A stretch of 64,000 nt of DNA from an uncultured Verrucomicrobiae bacterium. GTDB taxonomy: Bacteria; Verrucomicrobiota; Verrucomicrobiia; Chthoniobacterales; JAFAMB01. Each line of letters opens with the position of its first letter. Within the stretch, counting starts at the first letter, position 1. The stretch lies in contig CAWEXO010000014.1 in NCBI GenBank assembly GCA_963813025.1, positions 320,001 through 384,000 on the forward strand, read 5' to 3'. The translations under genes and the position numbers were made by a program. Below the pieces are notes generated by a model that was not told where the DNA came from, ran no database searches, and saw only the letters and a program-made list of their open reading frames with translations. Of the stretch, positions 5,003-38,407 are shown in pieces.

Positions 5003-6330
5003 GACGAAAGGGCTATTTGTTTCAGCAATTCCTGATTTAGACGAATTCCTGCCTGGAAATTTTCGATTGGAAAGTTCTCGTTCGGCGAATGCGCGCGAGC
5101 GTCCGGGAGCGCGAGACCGAGCAACAGCGTGTCGGTGCCGAAGACGTCCTTGAAGGTCTGCGTGATCGGGATCGAGCCGCCTTCGCGAATAAACGCGATC
5201 GGCTTATTGAAAGTTTCCTGGAGTGCCCGCTTTGCCGCCTCGGCGAAGGGAGAGTCTATGCTGACCAAATAGGGTTTGCCGCCGTGCCCGGCGACGATCT
5301 CCATCGTAATACCTTCAGGGCAATGCGCTCGAAGAAATTCGGAGATAACCGGCTGCAACTCAGCTGGATCTTGATCAGGAACCAAACGAAAAGAAAGTTT
5401 GGCCACGGCTCGGCTCGGCACGATCGTCTTGCCTCCCTCGCCCTGGTAACCGCTCGTCAGACCATTCACTTCCGCCGTTGGGCGTGCCCAGACTCTTTCG
5501 AGGGTGCTGTAACCCTCCTCGCCGGCAAGGCTGCGGGCTCCCACAGTCTTCAACCAGGCTTCCTCGCTGAAGGGAAGCTTGCTCCAGAGCTCTTTTTCCC
5601 AGCGAGCAACCGGTTTCACGTGATCGTAGAATCCCGGGATCGCGACGCGCCCTTTGGAATCGTGCAAGGAAGCGATGATCCGACTCAGAACGGTGGCCGG
5701 ATTATCGACCGACCCTCCGAAAATGCCGGAGTGCAAGTCAAACGCCGGTCCCTGGAGCCGAAGTTCGAGGGCGAGGACACCGCGCAACCCGTAGGTTAGC
5801 GTTGGAACGCCGGGCGCGAACATGCCGGTATCCGAGACCGCGACGATGTCCGGCTGCAATTCGGTTAAATGATTGCGGAGAAAGCCTTCCAGGTGCCTGC
5901 TCCCAACCTCTTCCTCACCTTCGACTACAATGATCACGTTTACCGGTAAATCATGGTTTTCGCGCAGAGCTGCCTCTACACCGAGAATGTGCGCCAGGAT
6001 CTGTCCTTTGTTGTCGGTAGCGCCCCGGGCGATTATCCGGCCATCAATAACGGTCGGTTCGAAGGGAGGGGTTTGCCACAGCTCAAGAGGGTCGGGCGGT
6101 TGAACGTCGTAATGACCGTAGACCAAAACAGTTCGCTTGCCGGCTACCTGCTGATTGCGGCCAACGACAACCGGGTTACCCGCAGTTGCAAATTGATGAG
6201 CGTCAAGACCGCATCGCCGGAGTCGCGCCGTGAGCCAGTCGGCGCAGGCTTCAACATCGGGCCGGAATTTGCTATCCGCGGAAACGGATGGGAACCGCAA
6301 AAATTCGAAAAGATCATCTAGCGGATTCAT
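4999..6330 (-). CDS. M20 family dipeptidase
   Basis: YGHYDVQP, ARGATDNKGQ, EGEEE, DLHSG, GGSIP, AHSPNE. Confidence 0.92.
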   Translation of the reverse strand: MNPLDDLFEFLRFPSVSADSKFRPDVEACADWLTARLRRCGLDAHQFATAGNPVVVGRNQQVAGKRTVLVYGHYDVQPPDPLELWQTPPFEPTVIDGRIIARGATDNKGQILAHILGVEAALRENHDLPVNVIIVVEGEEEVGSRHLEGFLRNHLTELQPDIVAVSDTGMFAPGVPTLTYGLRGVLALELRLQGPAFDLHSGIFGGSVDNPATVLSRIIASLHDSKGRVAIPGFYDHVKPVARWEKELWSKLPFSEEAWLKTVGARSLAGEEGYSTLERVWARPTAEVNGLTSGYQGEGGKTIVPSRAVAKLSFRLVPDQDPAELQPVISEFLRAHCPEGITMEIVAGHGGKPYLVSIDSPFAEAAKRALQETFNKPIAFIREGGSIPITQTFKDVFGTDTLLLGLALPDARAHSPNENFPIENFQAGIRLNQELLKQIALSS

Positions 6331-34223: not shown

Positions 34224-35294
34224 TCAATCAGTTTTCTGCCCCTGCACGCTCCGGAGTTGCTTGTGCAGGTGCTCGGCGATACCCAGAAAAACCTCGGCAA
34301 CGGCGCCTCTCGGGTTCTCAAGGACAATCGGCATTCCACGATCGCCCGCCTCTCGAGTGGCAATATCCAAAGGTATTTGGCCCAAAAACGGTACTCCGAG
34401 CCGCTTGGCTTCCCGTAATCCCCCGCCCGTGCCGAAGATGTCGTGACGCCGGTTATCGCTCGGACTCATAAAAAAACTCATGTTTTCGACGATACCAAGG
34501 ACCGGAACATTCACTTTGGCGAACATCGAACTCGCTTTGCGCGCATCGATCAAGGCGACTTCCTGGGGCGTGGTCACAATGACGGCGCCAGCCAGGCTTA
34601 CTGTTTGGACAACCGTAAGCTGAATGTCGCCTGTGCCTGGCGGCAGATCGAGCACGAGATATTCCAAGCCGGACCAATCGACTTGCCGGAGAAATTGCTG
34701 GGTCGCCCGGGTGACCATCGGACCGCGGAGGATCGCCGGTGACGTGTCGTCAAGCAGCGATCCCATGGAGATGAGCCTGATCCCGTAGCGGTCGATCGGG
34801 ATGATCACATTCTCTTTGGTTGCCATGGGCTGTTCGTGACTCGCTCCGAACATTAGTGAAATGCTTGGACCATAGATATCGCAATCGCAAAGCCCGGTGG
34901 GGGCCCCGAGCAGGTGCAGGGCCGCCGCAAGATTGGCGGCGACCGTCGATTTGCCGACGCCGCCCTTGCCACTCGCGACTGCGATCACGAAATTGACTCC
35001 GGGGATTCTGGTCGCAGCGGTCTGCGCCCCGGGCGTTTCCGGCGGGCTGGAGATATCGATCACCACCTTCGCCGATCCGATTCCGGGAACCTCGCGAAGG
35101 ACTCGCTCGGAATCTCGCTTCAACGTCTCCGGAATTGCCGGGTTGGCGGTAGCCACACTCAGATGCACGAGAACGTCCTGTCCGGATACCTGGACCGATT
35201 TCACCAAACCAAAACTGACAATGTCCCGGCTGTATCCAGGAAATTTTACGGTTTTTAGACGTTGCAGAACAAAATCTTCAGAGAGCGCGGCCAT
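34224..35294 (-). CDS. apbC: Mrp/NBP35 Fe-S cluster carrier ATPase
   Basis: ASGKGGVGKST, DIYGPS, RGPM, DLPPGTGD, ENMS. Confidence 0.92.
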   Translation of the reverse strand: MAALSEDFVLQRLKTVKFPGYSRDIVSFGLVKSVQVSGQDVLVHLSVATANPAIPETLKRDSERVLREVPGIGSAKVVIDISSPPETPGAQTAATRIPGVNFVIAVASGKGGVGKSTVAANLAAALHLLGAPTGLCDCDIYGPSISLMFGASHEQPMATKENVIIPIDRYGIRLISMGSLLDDTSPAILRGPMVTRATQQFLRQVDWSGLEYLVLDLPPGTGDIQLTVVQTVSLAGAVIVTTPQEVALIDARKASSMFAKVNVPVLGIVENMSFFMSPSDNRRHDIFGTGGGLREAKRLGVPFLGQIPLDIATREAGDRGMPIVLENPRGAVAEVFLGIAEHLHKQLRSVQGQKTD

Positions 35295-35335: not shown

Positions 35336-35550
35336 CGTGTCCGACTTGGCAAATGCGTCTATTTCGTCCGGTTCGTTCGCCCATCCAAGCGATGTAGCGC
35401 GGACGGCCTCGTCCGTACTCTTGTGGCTGCGCCAGCGCACGGCAGGTTTCCTTTTGCTCCCAGGACACGTGAAGTAATGCATCAGGCTTTGGCGCGTGGT
35501 TGGCCACTCGCCCAAGAGTACGGACGAGGCCGCGTCTGTCGGACTTTGGT
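35336..35550. repeat. REP cluster
   Basis: gtagcgcggacggcctcgtccgtac at 35394-35418 with inverted partner from 35518. Confidence 0.75.
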
Positions 35551-35636
35551 CATCTGTAGCTCGCGCAATCGAGCTAAGGTTCGAGACATGTCCCAAAGCG
35601 TCTTTGGTCCTGCGCCGGTAGATACGGTCTTGGATG

Positions 35637-36647
35637 TCAAGGGCATTGGTTTAAGGAATGGCGGGCCAGGTTAGGGTTGTAGGGTTGTTGGTGAGCGAGA
35701 ACACCGAAGGCGATGTGCAGGAGTTTTCGCATGACGGCACCGCGGATAGCCAGGGAGTGGAGCTTGCGCGACTCGAGACCTGCGGCCCATTGCTGGATGG
35801 GTTTGCACCAGCGGCGAGCAACGGCGGCCGGCAAATAGAGTGCTTTGCGCAGGAAAGCGTTGCCGATTTTGCACAGGGTGGTTTTGCCGTAGAGCGAGAC
35901 ACCGGAACGGAATTCAGAAGGAGTCAGCCCAGCATAGGCCGCCAACTGCCGAGCCGATTGGAACTCTTTACCGGCCAGCTCGGCCAGCAGCTTGGCGGCT
36001 GTGAGCTGGGCAATGCCGGGAATAGAGCACAGCAGTTGGCTTTGGCGGCTTAAAGCCTGATCAGCCGCGACTAAGCCGAAGATGGCCGACTCCAGCTGAG
36101 CGATTTCTTTCTTGAGCTGGGCGAGTCGTTGGCCACGCTGTTGGCTGACAAGCTCGGGCAGCGCAATTGGGTAAGGGTCTTTTTTCACCCGGTTCTGTTC
36201 CCGGATGAGCTCGCCAACCCGGCTTTCGCGCTCCCGCACCAGCAGTTTGAATTCTTCCTCAAGGGGGCGCAGCGGCCGAGTGGCCAGTGGTTTTCGCTCC
36301 AGACAAAACTGGGCAATGATGGCCGCATCAACCCGATCATTTTTGGTGCGGCGCAGGACCGAGAAAGCAAAGTATTTGACTTGGGCGGGATTGAGCACGC
36401 TGACCGCCAAGCCTGCTTGGTGCAGAGCGGCGATCAATCTCTTCCCGTAGACCCCGGTGGCTTCCAGGGCGAAGTGGATCTGGGAGAGCGGCCAAGAGCG
36501 GGCCTGGAGTTGGGCTAAAAATGCTCCAATGCCGGTCGCATCATTGCTGAACTTTCCCCGCCACAGGCGAGTGCCATTCTTGGAGAGCAGGCAAAAGTCA
36601 AAGCTTGCTTTTGCCATATCAATACCCATGCAGTAGCGTTTTTTCAT
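35637..36647 (-). CDS. IS110 recombinase
   Basis: GIDMAK, LEATGVY, KNDRVDA, SIPGIA, AAYAGLTPSEFRSG, GNAFLRKALY. Confidence 0.93.
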   Translation of the reverse strand: MKKRYCMGIDMAKASFDFCLLSKNGTRLWRGKFSNDATGIGAFLAQLQARSWPLSQIHFALEATGVYGKRLIAALHQAGLAVSVLNPAQVKYFAFSVLRRTKNDRVDAAIIAQFCLERKPLATRPLRPLEEEFKLLVRERESRVGELIREQNRVKKDPYPIALPELVSQQRGQRLAQLKKEIAQLESAIFGLVAADQALSRQSQLLCSIPGIAQLTAAKLLAELAGKEFQSARQLAAYAGLTPSEFRSGVSLYGKTTLCKIGNAFLRKALYLPAAVARRWCKPIQQWAAGLESRKLHSLAIRGAVMRKLLHIAFGVLAHQQPYNPNLARHSLNQCP

Positions 36648-36711
36648 CAGAGAGGAATTCGCGTTGAATTGGTTCTTTGTTTGATGAAGCGCTTGGGCGC
36701 GCGCCTGCTGA

Positions 36712-36925
36712 CAGAGCCTTGTGAACACGGGCTTATGTTCCAACCCTGTTTGGAACGGCCTAAGATACGGTACGGTCTTATGCAGGTGCGGCACGAGGAA
36801 GGGTGGACTAATCTACCGGACAGGTCCTACCGACCTTTGGGCGAGGCAGTTTTCCACCCTCCTCGGCCAAGTTCTTCACTTCCAGAGTTCCGCCCTTGCG
36901 GGCGGCTTTAAAAGGGAAAAAAAAT
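36712..36925 (-). ncRNA. Bridge RNA with target- and donor-binding loops
   Basis: Two stem/internal-loop domains whose loop sequences match the element's junctions; ends approximate. Confidence 0.82.
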
Positions 36926-36944
36926 TGGTGGGGCAAGGTACAAG

Positions 36945-37220
36945 AGCGAAAATTTATTCGAGCCTTAGCGAGAACTTGTTTGAGCCGTCTTCAGTGTGAC
37001 CTGCCCAACGCCCGGCTCAAACGAGTCTTCGCCGAAGGCTCAGATGAATTCTCGCCTTACCGATTTTGGGATGTTGCGAAACATGCTCTAAATTTTCGCC
37101 CCACCGACACAGGACAGTGCGGCAATCTGAGACGATCTCTAACCGCTTGGGCGACCAATCGCTTGGGTGGCGTGCTACAGATTTCCAAAGTCCGACACGC
37201 CCGAGGCCGTCCGTGCTACC
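36945..37220. repeat. Composite REP-like element (~50-bp units ending TTYTCGCCCTACCGA)
   Basis: Inverted homolog of 46330-46650. Confidence 0.8.
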
Positions 37221-37369
37221 TCGCCTCTGCGGGCCGCGGGCCGAGGGTGATAGTCTAGTGGTCCTTTGCCAAATTGGATGAAATCGGGCGATCGTAATTC
37301 TCCAGATAACCACCGATAATTAGGTATTTCGGTTGAAATCTCTGGCGGCCAGCATGAACTCCTTAGGAT

Positions 37370-38407
37370 ATGCAGTTCAGCGAGTCCTCACCGTTCGGGT
37401 TCACCACCGGCGGCTTCGTTGAGACGATTGGCCGAACTCCGTTGATCCGGCTCGCTACACTGTCCGAAGCGACCGGATGTGAGATTTTTGGTAAAGCTGA
37501 ATTCTTGAATCCGGGTGGTTCCGTGAAAGATCGGGCGGCACTCGGCATTGTTCTGGATGCCGAAGAACGCGGTCTGCTGCGGCCCGGCAGTACTACCATC
37601 GTCGAGGGTACGGCCGGAAACACCGGCATTGGCCTGGCTTTGGTCGCGAATGCTCGCGGCTATCGGTCTGTCATTGTCTTGCCCGAGAATATGTCTCAGG
37701 AAAAGATTGATAGTTTGCAAGCGATGGGGGCGGAGGTCCGGTTGGTGCCTCCTAAACCTTACGCCGACCCAGACAACTACATCCATGTGTCGGAGCGAGT
37801 CGCCAGGGAGACACCGGGAGGTTTTTGGGCGAATCAATTCGATAATGTCGCGAATCGGCAAGCTCATTATCGAACAACCGGTCCGGAAATCTGGGAGCAG
37901 ACGGGGCGTGGCCTGACCGGTTTTGTCGCTTCGGTCGGGACCGGCGGCACGCTCGCGGGAATTTCGCTTTACCTGAAAGAACAGAGTCCAAACATCAAGA
38001 TAGTTTGTGCGGATCCCTATGGCGCGGCCATGTGGTCCTGGGTCAAACTCGGCCACACCAACGTGGCCGACGGCGATTCGGTCGCAGAGGGTATCGGGCA
38101 GAATCGAGTTACCAAGAACTTGGAAGACATAGTGATTGACGACGCTTATCGGATTACCGACAAGGTAGCGATGGAGATGCTCTACCATCTCCTGCACCGT
38201 GAAGGCCTTTTTTTGAGCTTGTCTTCAGCCATCAATGTTTGTGGCGCGGTGAGACTTGCGCGGGAGAGCGGTCCCGGCCAGACGATTGCGACCATTCTCT
38301 GCGATTCGGGTTCGCGCTATGTATCGCGTCTTTTCAATCCGGAATGGCTGGCTGAGCGAGACTTAACGCCAAAGGCGAAAGGCTTGGAGTTTCTGGAACT
38401 CCTTTGA
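37370..38407 (+). CDS. cysK: Cysteine synthase
   Basis: KAEFLNPGGSVKDR, EGTAGNTG, NQFDN, GTGGT. Confidence 0.9.
   Translation: MQFSESSPFGFTTGGFVETIGRTPLIRLATLSEATGCEIFGKAEFLNPGGSVKDRAALGIVLDAEERGLLRPGSTTIVEGTAGNTGIGLALVANARGYRSVIVLPENMSQEKIDSLQAMGAEVRLVPPKPYADPDNYIHVSERVARETPGGFWANQFDNVANRQAHYRTTGPEIWEQTGRGLTGFVASVGTGGTLAGISLYLKEQSPNIKIVCADPYGAAMWSWVKLGHTNVADGDSVAEGIGQNRVTKNLEDIVIDDAYRITDKVAMEMLYHLLHREGLFLSLSSAINVCGAVRLARESGPGQTIATILCDSGSRYVSRLFNPEWLAERDLTPKAKGLEFLELL

What the first reader, a model, noticed from the sequence alone, without database searches (positions are those of the whole stretch)
35620..36944. IS110 bridge-RNA element whose guides can be read and matched to its own junctions
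Seen (minus strand): right junction ACCGTAT-CT-ACCGG (core 35620-35621) and left junction TTTCGCT-CT-TGTAC (core 36943-36944). The non-coding left end folds into two loop domains. The donor loop carries ACCGTATCT (36763-36771), an exact match to the donor left half plus core, and TCACAAG (36718-36724), which pairs with CTTGT. The target loop carries CCGGTAG (36813-36819), the exact reverse complement of CT-ACCGG, and CCTCGCCCA (36838-36846), a partial match to TTTCGCTCT. Established: this is the IS621 bridge-RNA architecture. Inference: an intact RNA-guided recombinase ortholog with donor ACCGTAT-CT-TGTAC and preferred target about CCTCGCC-CT-ACCGG.
Basis: partly seen in the sequence, partly recalled or inferred. 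Interest (0 to 1): 0.85.

Follow-up and report, generated by a model that had tools for sequence, protein, structure and literature searches.

The report
REP-targeting IS110 element with readable guides
This is an intact jumping gene of a known RNA-guided kind, and its guide RNA predicts where its dozen copies sit in this genome; it is a new, distant member of a well-described family rather than a new system.

Summary
All quoted motifs lie at the quoted coordinates. The element is a 1,323-bp IS110-group insertion sequence: 336-aa DEDD/Ser recombinase (115 of 338 columns identical to IS621), CT core, junction promoter, left-end bridge RNA laid out like IS621's. The genome holds 12 two-ended copies plus one left-end-only copy, all in a GTAG-type REP repeat. 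12 of 12 right junctions equal the right target guide, against 95 of 249 free sites and 4 of 9 for an unrelated IS110 in the same repeat. Across 30 distinct homologous guide sets, guides change with targets (142/150 positions; shuffles mean 79). Corrections: the real target is TYTCGCC-CT-ACCGG (C at position 1 in 0 of 13); the right donor guide is split by a 2-nt bulge; handshake bases, promoter and REP context were missed; the lone-RNA fold does not keep the guides open. No transcript or activity shown. New member of a known kind. Side results: a recombinase-dead deletion copy sits at two loci, and two IS110 families share one REP. The scan earlier noted REP-targeting IS110s on other DNA of this genome (e1-7688196), apparently the other family.

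The parts
35620..36944 (-). IS110-group element, core to core (1,323-bp unit)
   Evidence: 12 two-ended copies share these ends with different flanks
35637..36647 (-). Recombinase ORF, 336 aa; D10, E62, D104, D107, S248
   Evidence: PF01548 and PF02371 above cut-off; NF033542 207.7 bits vs cut-off 140; residues align to IS621 D11/E60/D102/D105/S241
36943..36944 (-). Left core CT
   Evidence: CT at both ends in 12 of 12 copies
35620..35621 (-). Right core CT
36938..36942 (-). Right donor half TGTAC
   Evidence: 12 of 12 copies
35622..35628 (-). Left donor half ACCGTAT
   Evidence: 12 of 12 copies
35635..35640 (-). -35 box TTGACA of the junction promoter (overlaps the ORF's stop codon)
   Evidence: 17-nt spacing to the -10 box once the ends are joined; activity inferred
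36935..36940 (-). -10 box TACCTT of the junction promoter
   Evidence: 3 of 6 consensus bases; no promoter called on the linear region
35629..35632 (-). Short sub-terminal inverted repeat CAAG (partner CTTG at 36934-36937)
   Evidence: read from the sequence
36872..36921 (-). Bridge RNA 5' stem-loop
   Evidence: its inner hairpin is the search motif, so its invariance is by construction
36790..36868 (-). Target-binding loop domain (outer stem, inner hairpin 36822-36836)
   Evidence: consensus fold of 34 sequences, 5 of 25 pairs with two-sided changes
36838..36846 (-). Left target guide CCTCGCCC(A)
   Evidence: 13 of 13 genome junctions match at positions 3-6; homologue test 202/240 vs shuffles 140
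36813..36819 (-). Right target guide CCGGTAG (7 nt)
   Evidence: 12 of 12 right junctions; homologue test 142/150 vs shuffles 79
36811..36812 (-). Target-loop handshake bases AT, complementary to donor positions 6-7
   Evidence: AT in 62 of 66 readable homologues; same as IS621 (PMC13626964, Discussion)
36704..36786 (-). Donor-binding loop domain
   Evidence: constrained fold; segment-for-segment match to IS621; not recovered by unconstrained consensus folds
36763..36771 (-). Left donor guide ACCGTATC(T)
   Evidence: position 4 follows the donor in 52 of 52 homologues (46 G/G, 6 C/C)
36718..36726 (-). Right donor guide GT-[TC bulge]-ACAAG
   Evidence: GT with TGTAC 40, AT with TGTAT 17, 57 of 57; the bulge varies among genome copies
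36716..36717 (-). Donor-loop handshake bases GC; the G faces target position 7
   Evidence: target C7 in 12 of 13 copies
36945..37062 (.). Target repeat: GTAG-type REP arm cut by the element, with its inverted partner (REPIN/BIME-like pair)
   Evidence: 208 free T[TC]TCGCCCTAC sites in the genome
35615..35619 (-). Right target half ACCGG
   Evidence: 12 of 12 copies

Best explanation
An autonomous, recently spreading IS110-group element that works like IS621. Excision or copying joins the ends at CT and builds a sigma-70-type promoter (TTGACA, 17 nt, TACCTT) that drives a roughly 225-nt left-end bridge RNA and the recombinase. The donor loop pairs with the joined ends (8-nt left guide; right guide split by a 2-nt bulge). 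The target loop pairs with the end of a GTAG REP repeat, effectively TCGCC-CT-ACCGG, with positions 1-2 loose. The DEDD/Ser tetramer swaps strands at CT, and handshake bases AU and G favour insertion. Shown here: sequence anatomy, catalytic residues, copy number, target choice, guide-junction covariation. Inferred from IS621 papers: circle, promoter firing, transcript, chemistry, handshake effect.
For: 12 of 12 two-ended copies have CT cores, one donor and right target ACCGG; free sites have CGG in 95 of 249 (Fisher p 1.5e-5); an unrelated IS110 in the same repeat has it in 4 of 9 (p 0.006). Among homologues the right target guide matched 142 of 150 non-core positions over 30 distinct guide sets (17 different guides; 20,000 shuffles mean 79, max 101) and the left guide 202 of 240 (best of three registers; shuffles mean 140, max 166). 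Donor guides follow donor changes in 57 of 57 and 52 of 52. An IS621 allele fetched as L145 has the same segment order and linkers. 7 full-length copies keep D/E/D/D/S and are 99.0-99.5% identical to the window copy.
Against: No transcript, circle or activity was observed. The lone-RNA minimum-energy fold buries part of the guides, and unconstrained consensus folds did not recover the donor loop. Guide position 1 matches 0 of 13 targets and position 2 only 4 of 13. 10 of 52 homologous right junctions are imperfect; in G015 the 4 copies with a visible left end all carry a guide mismatched at position 11 to their ACCTG/ACCTT targets. Homologues are kin, so the shuffle test overstates; the donor covariation may rest on few events.
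Confidence: 0.93

Rival explanations
1. The protein (or REP hairpin structure) picks the target, and the guide-like matches are passengers.
For: All sites lie in one palindromic repeat family; a target stem-loop adds specificity for ISPpu10 (10.64898/2026.03.19.712850, abstract); G015 copies insert despite a guide mismatch.
Against: Guides track different targets among homologous elements whose proteins are 45-79% identical to this one. Occupied sites are not richer in inverted partners than free ones (8 of 12 vs 77 of 95, p 0.26) and fold, if anything, less stably. The CGG preference follows the guide.
Confidence: 0.04
2. The family is guided as described, but this particular copy is no longer mobile or landed off target.
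For: It alone of 13 has T at target position 7, so its left guide matches 5 of 8; six free sites with the same 32-nt context have C and one has T.
Against: ORF, catalytic residues, guides and both ends are intact. A free T7 site exists, so T may predate insertion. Excision is reported to depend on the donor arm only (10.64898/2026.08.31.748434, abstract).
Confidence: 0.15
3. The matches are chance or an assembly artefact.
For: Short motifs such as ACAAG and TCGCCC are common in shuffles (33%, 15%); the genome is an 80%-complete assembly.
Against: Four ordered guides, 13 copies with distinct flanks, contigs of an independent read set covering most of the element, and 67 loci with the same layout.
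Confidence: 0.01

Closest known systems
IS621 of Escherichia coli and its bridge RNA (PMC11208160, PMC11208158, PMC13626964; PDB 8wt6)
   Same: DEDD + Ser recombinase; CT core; left-end RNA with 5' stem-loop, target loop and donor loop; bulged right donor guide; AU target-loop handshake; three handshake pairs after strand exchange; junction promoter; target at the GTAG end of a REP (L145 left junction).
   Different: 115 of 338 aligned columns identical; left end 295 vs 191 nt; donor differs at positions 3 and 14 with matching guide changes; natural right target guide pairs over 7 nt (IS621 over 4; longer ones are reported for orthologues); donor-loop handshake GC vs GU; 4-bp CAAG/CTTG repeat; host among Verrucomicrobia by its relatives' record titles.
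ISCro4 / IS622 (10.1101/2025.05.14.653916; PDB 9t56)
   Same: Same family and 14-nt target and donor logic; E 1.2e-44.
   Different: 88% identical to IS621 by that paper, whereas this one is distant; activity here untested.
ISPpu9, ISPpu10 and MITEPpu9 of Pseudomonas putida (PMC12288879; 10.64898/2026.03.19.712850)
   Same: IS110-group elements that insert into REP/BIME repeats; two IS110s using REPs in one genome; trans mobilisation of end-bounded DNA and a MITE-like dependent are described.
   Different: ISPpu9 ends carry AG; no enrichment for paired REPs here; the dependents here are internal deletions that keep a whole bridge RNA.

Membership tests
IS110 family | Recombinase with DEDD RuvC-like domain and Tnp domain | tested here: met
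   PF01548 110.4 bits, PF02371 78 bits; NF033542 above cut-off
IS110 family | Catalytic D, E, D, D and S intact | tested here: met
   D10, E62, D104, D107, S248 align to IS621
IS110 family | No terminal inverted repeat or target duplication beyond a shared core | tested here: met
   CT at both ends in 12 of 12; free sites hold one CT
IS110 group (not IS1111) | Long left end holding the RNA, short right end, short sub-terminal repeat | tested here: met
   295-nt left end, 15 nt from stop codon to left core base, 4-bp CAAG/CTTG; criteria from PMC11208160 passages
IS621-type bridge RNA | Left and right target guides that match and covary with the target | tested here: met
   positions 1-3 loose across homologues (19, 20, 22 of 30 vs 27-29 of 30 at 4-8)
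IS621-type bridge RNA | Left donor guide and discontinuous right donor guide that covary with the donor | tested here: met
   52 of 52 and 57 of 57; 3 of 52 have G against donor A at position 6
IS621-type bridge RNA | Handshake bases beside the right guides | tested here: met
   AT and GC; IS621 has AU and GU; donor-loop G faces target C7 in 46 of 58 homologues with both readable
IS621-type bridge RNA | Guides lie in internal loops of two stem-loop domains | tested here: inconclusive
   Target loop recovered by consensus fold; donor loop only under constraint (42 of 42, no control); lone-RNA fold pairs part of the guides
IS621-type bridge RNA | Match to the published bridge-RNA covariance model | not testable with these tools
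   Model not on hand; Rfam gave 0 matches in the window
IS110 family | Promoter formed across the joined ends | tested here: met
   TTGACA, 17 nt, TACCTT; a sequence match only
IS110 family | Circular intermediate, expressed RNA, RNA-dependent recombination | not testable with these tools
   needs raw reads, RNA-seq or an assay

The most novel reading that the evidence does not exclude
This genome shows a small ecosystem of RNA-guided elements on one REP repeat. A recombinase-dead deletion derivative that keeps its own bridge RNA has transposed in trans: the same 306-bp deletion, which removes D104 and D107, sits at two unrelated REP sites (G000 C9:218161, C15:124627; 6 differences in 1,011 columns). 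An unrelated IS110 with a one-base core inserts 3 nt away in the same repeat, so each insertion should spoil the other family's target, which would be direct competition for target sites between guide-programmed elements.
Probability: 0.45. Interest if true: 0.5.

Novelty: new member of a known kind. Interest (0 to 1): 0.3.

Why it matters
Bridge recombinases are a programmable genome-editing class, and screens of diverse orthologues are how usable ones were found (72 screened, 18 with a detectable junction, 1 above background; 10.1101/2025.05.14.653916 passages). This is a distant orthologue with fully assigned donor, target, guides and handshake bases, a natural 7-nt right target guide, and a clade of relatives showing 17 natural right-guide variants on one scaffold. 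That makes it ready to test, but it does not change the model. The side findings (trans-mobilised dead copies, two families on one REP) would add natural evidence on how such elements share and compete for targets.

Tried and rejected
Rfam scan of the window: 0 matches. Promoter and terminator scan of the linear region: 0 and 0. Sequencing runs: no RNA holder listed. Contigs of 3 runs showed no end-to-end circle joint; contigs show presence, not absence; one contig of X1 skips the element, but it may come from a paralogous repeat. Hairpin gating of the target: no support (8 of 12 vs 77 of 95). Preference for C at target position 2 in the main subfamily: 3 of 9 vs 12 of 95 free sites, p 0.12, not significant. 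A one-base core for this element: rejected, CT in 12 of 12. Unconstrained consensus folds did not give the donor loop. The exact protein is not in the 15-billion collection. In the supplements of PMC11208160 the target and stem-loop motifs gave 0 hits in 7 files and none of 10 Verrucomicrobia rows resembled this protein by eye; file 3 is cut and file 2 unreadable, and the paper's larger data sets and all bioRxiv supplements were not seen, so the element may already be in published orthologue lists. Of 104 candidate loci, 37 were dropped before the covariation test because they lacked a full bridge RNA (chance motif matches, contig ends, truncations); L074 was left out of the left-junction tests because its junction was mis-parsed. 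No structure prediction was run.

Full report
OBSERVATION. In 20,000 dinucleotide shuffles of the 295-nt left end, the 9-nt donor match arose in 0.05%, the 7-nt right target guide in 1.7% (0.04% with its two following bases) and the split right donor guide in 2.1%; the 5-nt and 6-nt pieces alone are common. The element lies between an Mrp/NUBPL-type P-loop NTPase gene (34224-35294, PF10609) and a PLP-enzyme gene (37370-38407, PF00291).

PROTEIN. The ORF 36647-35637 gives 336 aa with PF01548 and PF02371 and NF033542, IS110 family RNA-guided transposase, above cut-off. The only solved-structure matches are IS621 (E 2.3e-46) and ISCro4 (E 1.2e-44). Against an IS621 allele fetched as L145 (its protein agrees with the 8wt6 chain shown but for a residue near the end), 115 of 338 columns are identical, and D11, E60, D102, D105 and S241 map to D10, E62, D104, D107 and S248; A61, G63, N84 and G242, which the structure paper names around the core, are kept too (PMC11208158 passages). 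Relatives at 49-77% identity come from records titled Verrucomicrobiae, Verrucomicrobiota or Chthoniobacterales.

COPIES AND TARGET. The genome holds 12 copies with both ends, one with only a left end (C14:421123) and one internal RNA remnant (C4, near 5.8 kb). Seven are full length with intact catalytic residues and 99.0-99.5% identity to the window copy. One has an in-frame 81-bp deletion, one is interrupted by a 1,452-bp element, and three belong to a second subfamily (about 86% identical) with internal deletions. All 12 have core CT, donor ACCGTAT-CT-TGTAC and right target ACCGG. Left targets read TTTCGCC, TCTCGCC, GTTCGCC or GCTCGCC; only the window copy has T at position 7. The target is the end of an abundant GTAG-type palindromic repeat: 208 free T[TC]TCGCCCTAC sites against about 2 expected per 11-mer, commonly in inverted pairs 50-150 nt apart. 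Calling it a REP rests on its form (GTAG end, imperfect palindrome, inverted pairs) and on my knowledge of REP classes.

IN-GENOME TEST OF THE GUIDES. Free TCGCCCTAC sites continue with CGG in 95 of 249 cases; occupied ones in 12 of 12 (p 1.5e-5), which is what the guide CCGGTAG predicts. An unrelated IS110 family that uses the same repeat has CGG in 4 of 9 (p 0.006 against 12 of 12), so the bias is not a property of where such repeats sit. The left guide matches 13 of 13 at positions 3-6, 12 of 13 at 7, 4 of 13 at 2 and 0 of 13 at 1.

HOMOLOGUE TEST. A scan of metagenome contigs with the 5' hairpin motif gave 89 loci. With 14 genome loci and the window this made 104 candidates, of which 67 held a full bridge RNA. 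Of 52 with a readable right guide and right junction, 42 were perfect at the five non-core bases. Over 30 distinct guide sets (17 different right guides) 142 of 150 positions matched; 20,000 shuffled pairings gave mean 79, maximum 101. For the left guide, 30 distinct sets gave 202 of 240 with the best of three registers, against 140 and 166 under the same rule. The first two bases of the split right donor guide were GT with donor TGTAC (40) and AT with TGTAT (17), 57 of 57. Position 4 of the left donor guide followed the donor in 52 of 52. These elements are kin and the window is one of the rows, so the figures overstate independence. Misses: 10 of 52 imperfect right junctions, 3 of 52 with G against donor A at position 6, and G at target position 7 opposite the handshake G in 10 loci.

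RNA ANATOMY. In IS621 the target loop has a 9-nt left guide, a hairpin, a GU linker, the right guide and handshake A81-U82; the donor loop has an 8-nt left guide, and a right guide in which two bases are flipped out (PMC11208158 passages; PMC11208160 section 0 part 2). L145 and the window show the same order and the same linkers: ACCT-GT-[7-nt guide]-AT in the target loop, and GT-[2]-[2-nt bulge]-[5]-G in the donor loop. So the right donor guide is GT-[TC]-ACAAG at 36726-36718; the bulge reads TC, GG, GA or TG among genome copies while its neighbours stay. Handshake bases are AT (36812-36811) and GC (36717-36716). With target CC and donor AT at positions 6-7 they give three Watson-Crick pairs after strand exchange, as reported for IS621 (PMC13626964 Discussion), and none before; this is inference. 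Joining the ends gives TTGACA, 17 nt, TACCTT. Folding evidence is mixed: the region is stable (z -3.75), the consensus fold of 34 sequences gives the target domain with open guides and 5 of 25 pairs changed on both sides, but the lone-RNA fold pairs 5 of 7 right-guide bases, opening all guides costs 11.3 kcal/mol, and the donor domain appears only under constraint.

MECHANISM. It most likely works as IS621 does: joined ends, junction promoter, bridge RNA bound by a recombinase tetramer, strand exchange at CT, handshake pairs favouring insertion (0.93). Whether the element is cut out or copied out is under debate for IS621 (10.64898/2026.08.31.748434, abstract only); a dozen near-identical copies fit either with replication. 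Protein-only or hairpin-only targeting is disfavoured by the covariation and by the lack of enrichment for paired repeats.

SIDE FINDINGS. First, C9:218161 and C15:124627 share one 306-bp deletion at identical breakpoints, differ at 6 of 1,011 columns, and sit in unrelated flanks. The deletion removes D104, D107 and the coiled coil; C15 keeps a 230-aa frame, C9 is frameshifted. The simplest reading is transposition in trans after deletion; gene conversion between copies is the rival, and a missing full-length parent cannot be excluded in an 80%-complete assembly. Trans activity is shown for ISPpu10 (section 6) and a MITE-like dependent is described for ISPpu9 (PMC12288879 passages), so the idea has precedent. 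Second, the genome has at least two more multi-copy IS110 families. One inserts in the same repeat at TTTTC-G-CCCTAC, its shared base 3 nt 5' of this element's core (9 of 9 right flanks in the repeat). Competition between them is inference.

WHAT IS KNOWN. Architecture, REP targeting and longer right guides in orthologues are published. I made four literature searches; none listed a paper on this element, and the readable supplements of PMC11208160 did not contain it, but cut, scanned and bioRxiv supplements were not seen. Earlier notes of this scan describe an IS110 in a GTAG repeat and a one-base core in this genome; by core type and copy spacing they appear to concern the other family (inference).

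VERDICT. Observation confirmed, interpretation supported with corrections. New member of a known kind; interest 0.3.

Noticed in passing
G000 C1:107375, C4:4004, C5:141867, C8:161183, C11:76476 and 83042, C13:93901 and 132857, C14:434850, C16:83865: A second, unrelated IS110 family (431-aa frame, about 1.69 kb) inserts in the same GTAG repeat with a one-base core, 3 nt from this element's core.
   Followed up: partly
G000 C2:76040, C14:332455 and about ten more: A third IS110-family element (about 462 aa, 1.69 kb) with varied targets, some in or beside the same repeats.
   Followed up: no
G000 C9:218161-219170 and C15:123619-124627; C12:154618-155246: Subfamily-B copies with internal deletions; two share the same 306-bp deletion at different sites, a third is 630 bp; all keep both ends and the bridge RNA.
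   Followed up: partly
L031, L032, L033, L037 (G015); L082; G000 C9:218161 and C4 remnant: The same G-to-C change in the right target guide opposite target position 11 recurs in three lineages while targets keep C; in G015 all 4 copies with a visible left end carry it and 6 of 6 right junctions read ACCTG or ACCTT. Tolerated mismatch, relief of guide self-pairing or guidance in trans are untested ideas.
   Followed up: partly
alignment A1 and loci: The left target guide sits in two registers one base apart inside a loop of the same length (for example window vs L071); 21 loci fit one register, 35 the next, partly by ambiguity in C runs.
   Followed up: partly
G000 C4, about 5750-5900: A bridge-RNA fragment fused to a REP arm through a shared CTTCGCC stretch at the left target guide, apparently a deletion remnant.
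   Followed up: no
L040-L049 (G012): A 49%-identical relative with the same left donor half is aimed at a different, non-GTAG repeat (TCTGCGC-CT-TTGTG), with a matching guide. L045 has a short tandem triplication at the start of the left end.
   Followed up: partly
L142:1444-2139 and L143:1174-1788 (G000 C11, C5): Two RAYT-like tyrosine transposase genes (NF047646 at 68 and 76 bits, below the cut-off of 80); a link to this repeat family was not tested.
   Followed up: no
window 36945-37300 and 35500-35619: The flanks belong to a longer composite repeat of about 350 bp with at least eight close free paralogues in the genome.
   Followed up: partly
G000 C9:67400-68850, C11:168084-169535, C13:244721-246172: A 1,452-bp multi-copy element interrupts one copy just before its start codon; not identified.
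   Followed up: no
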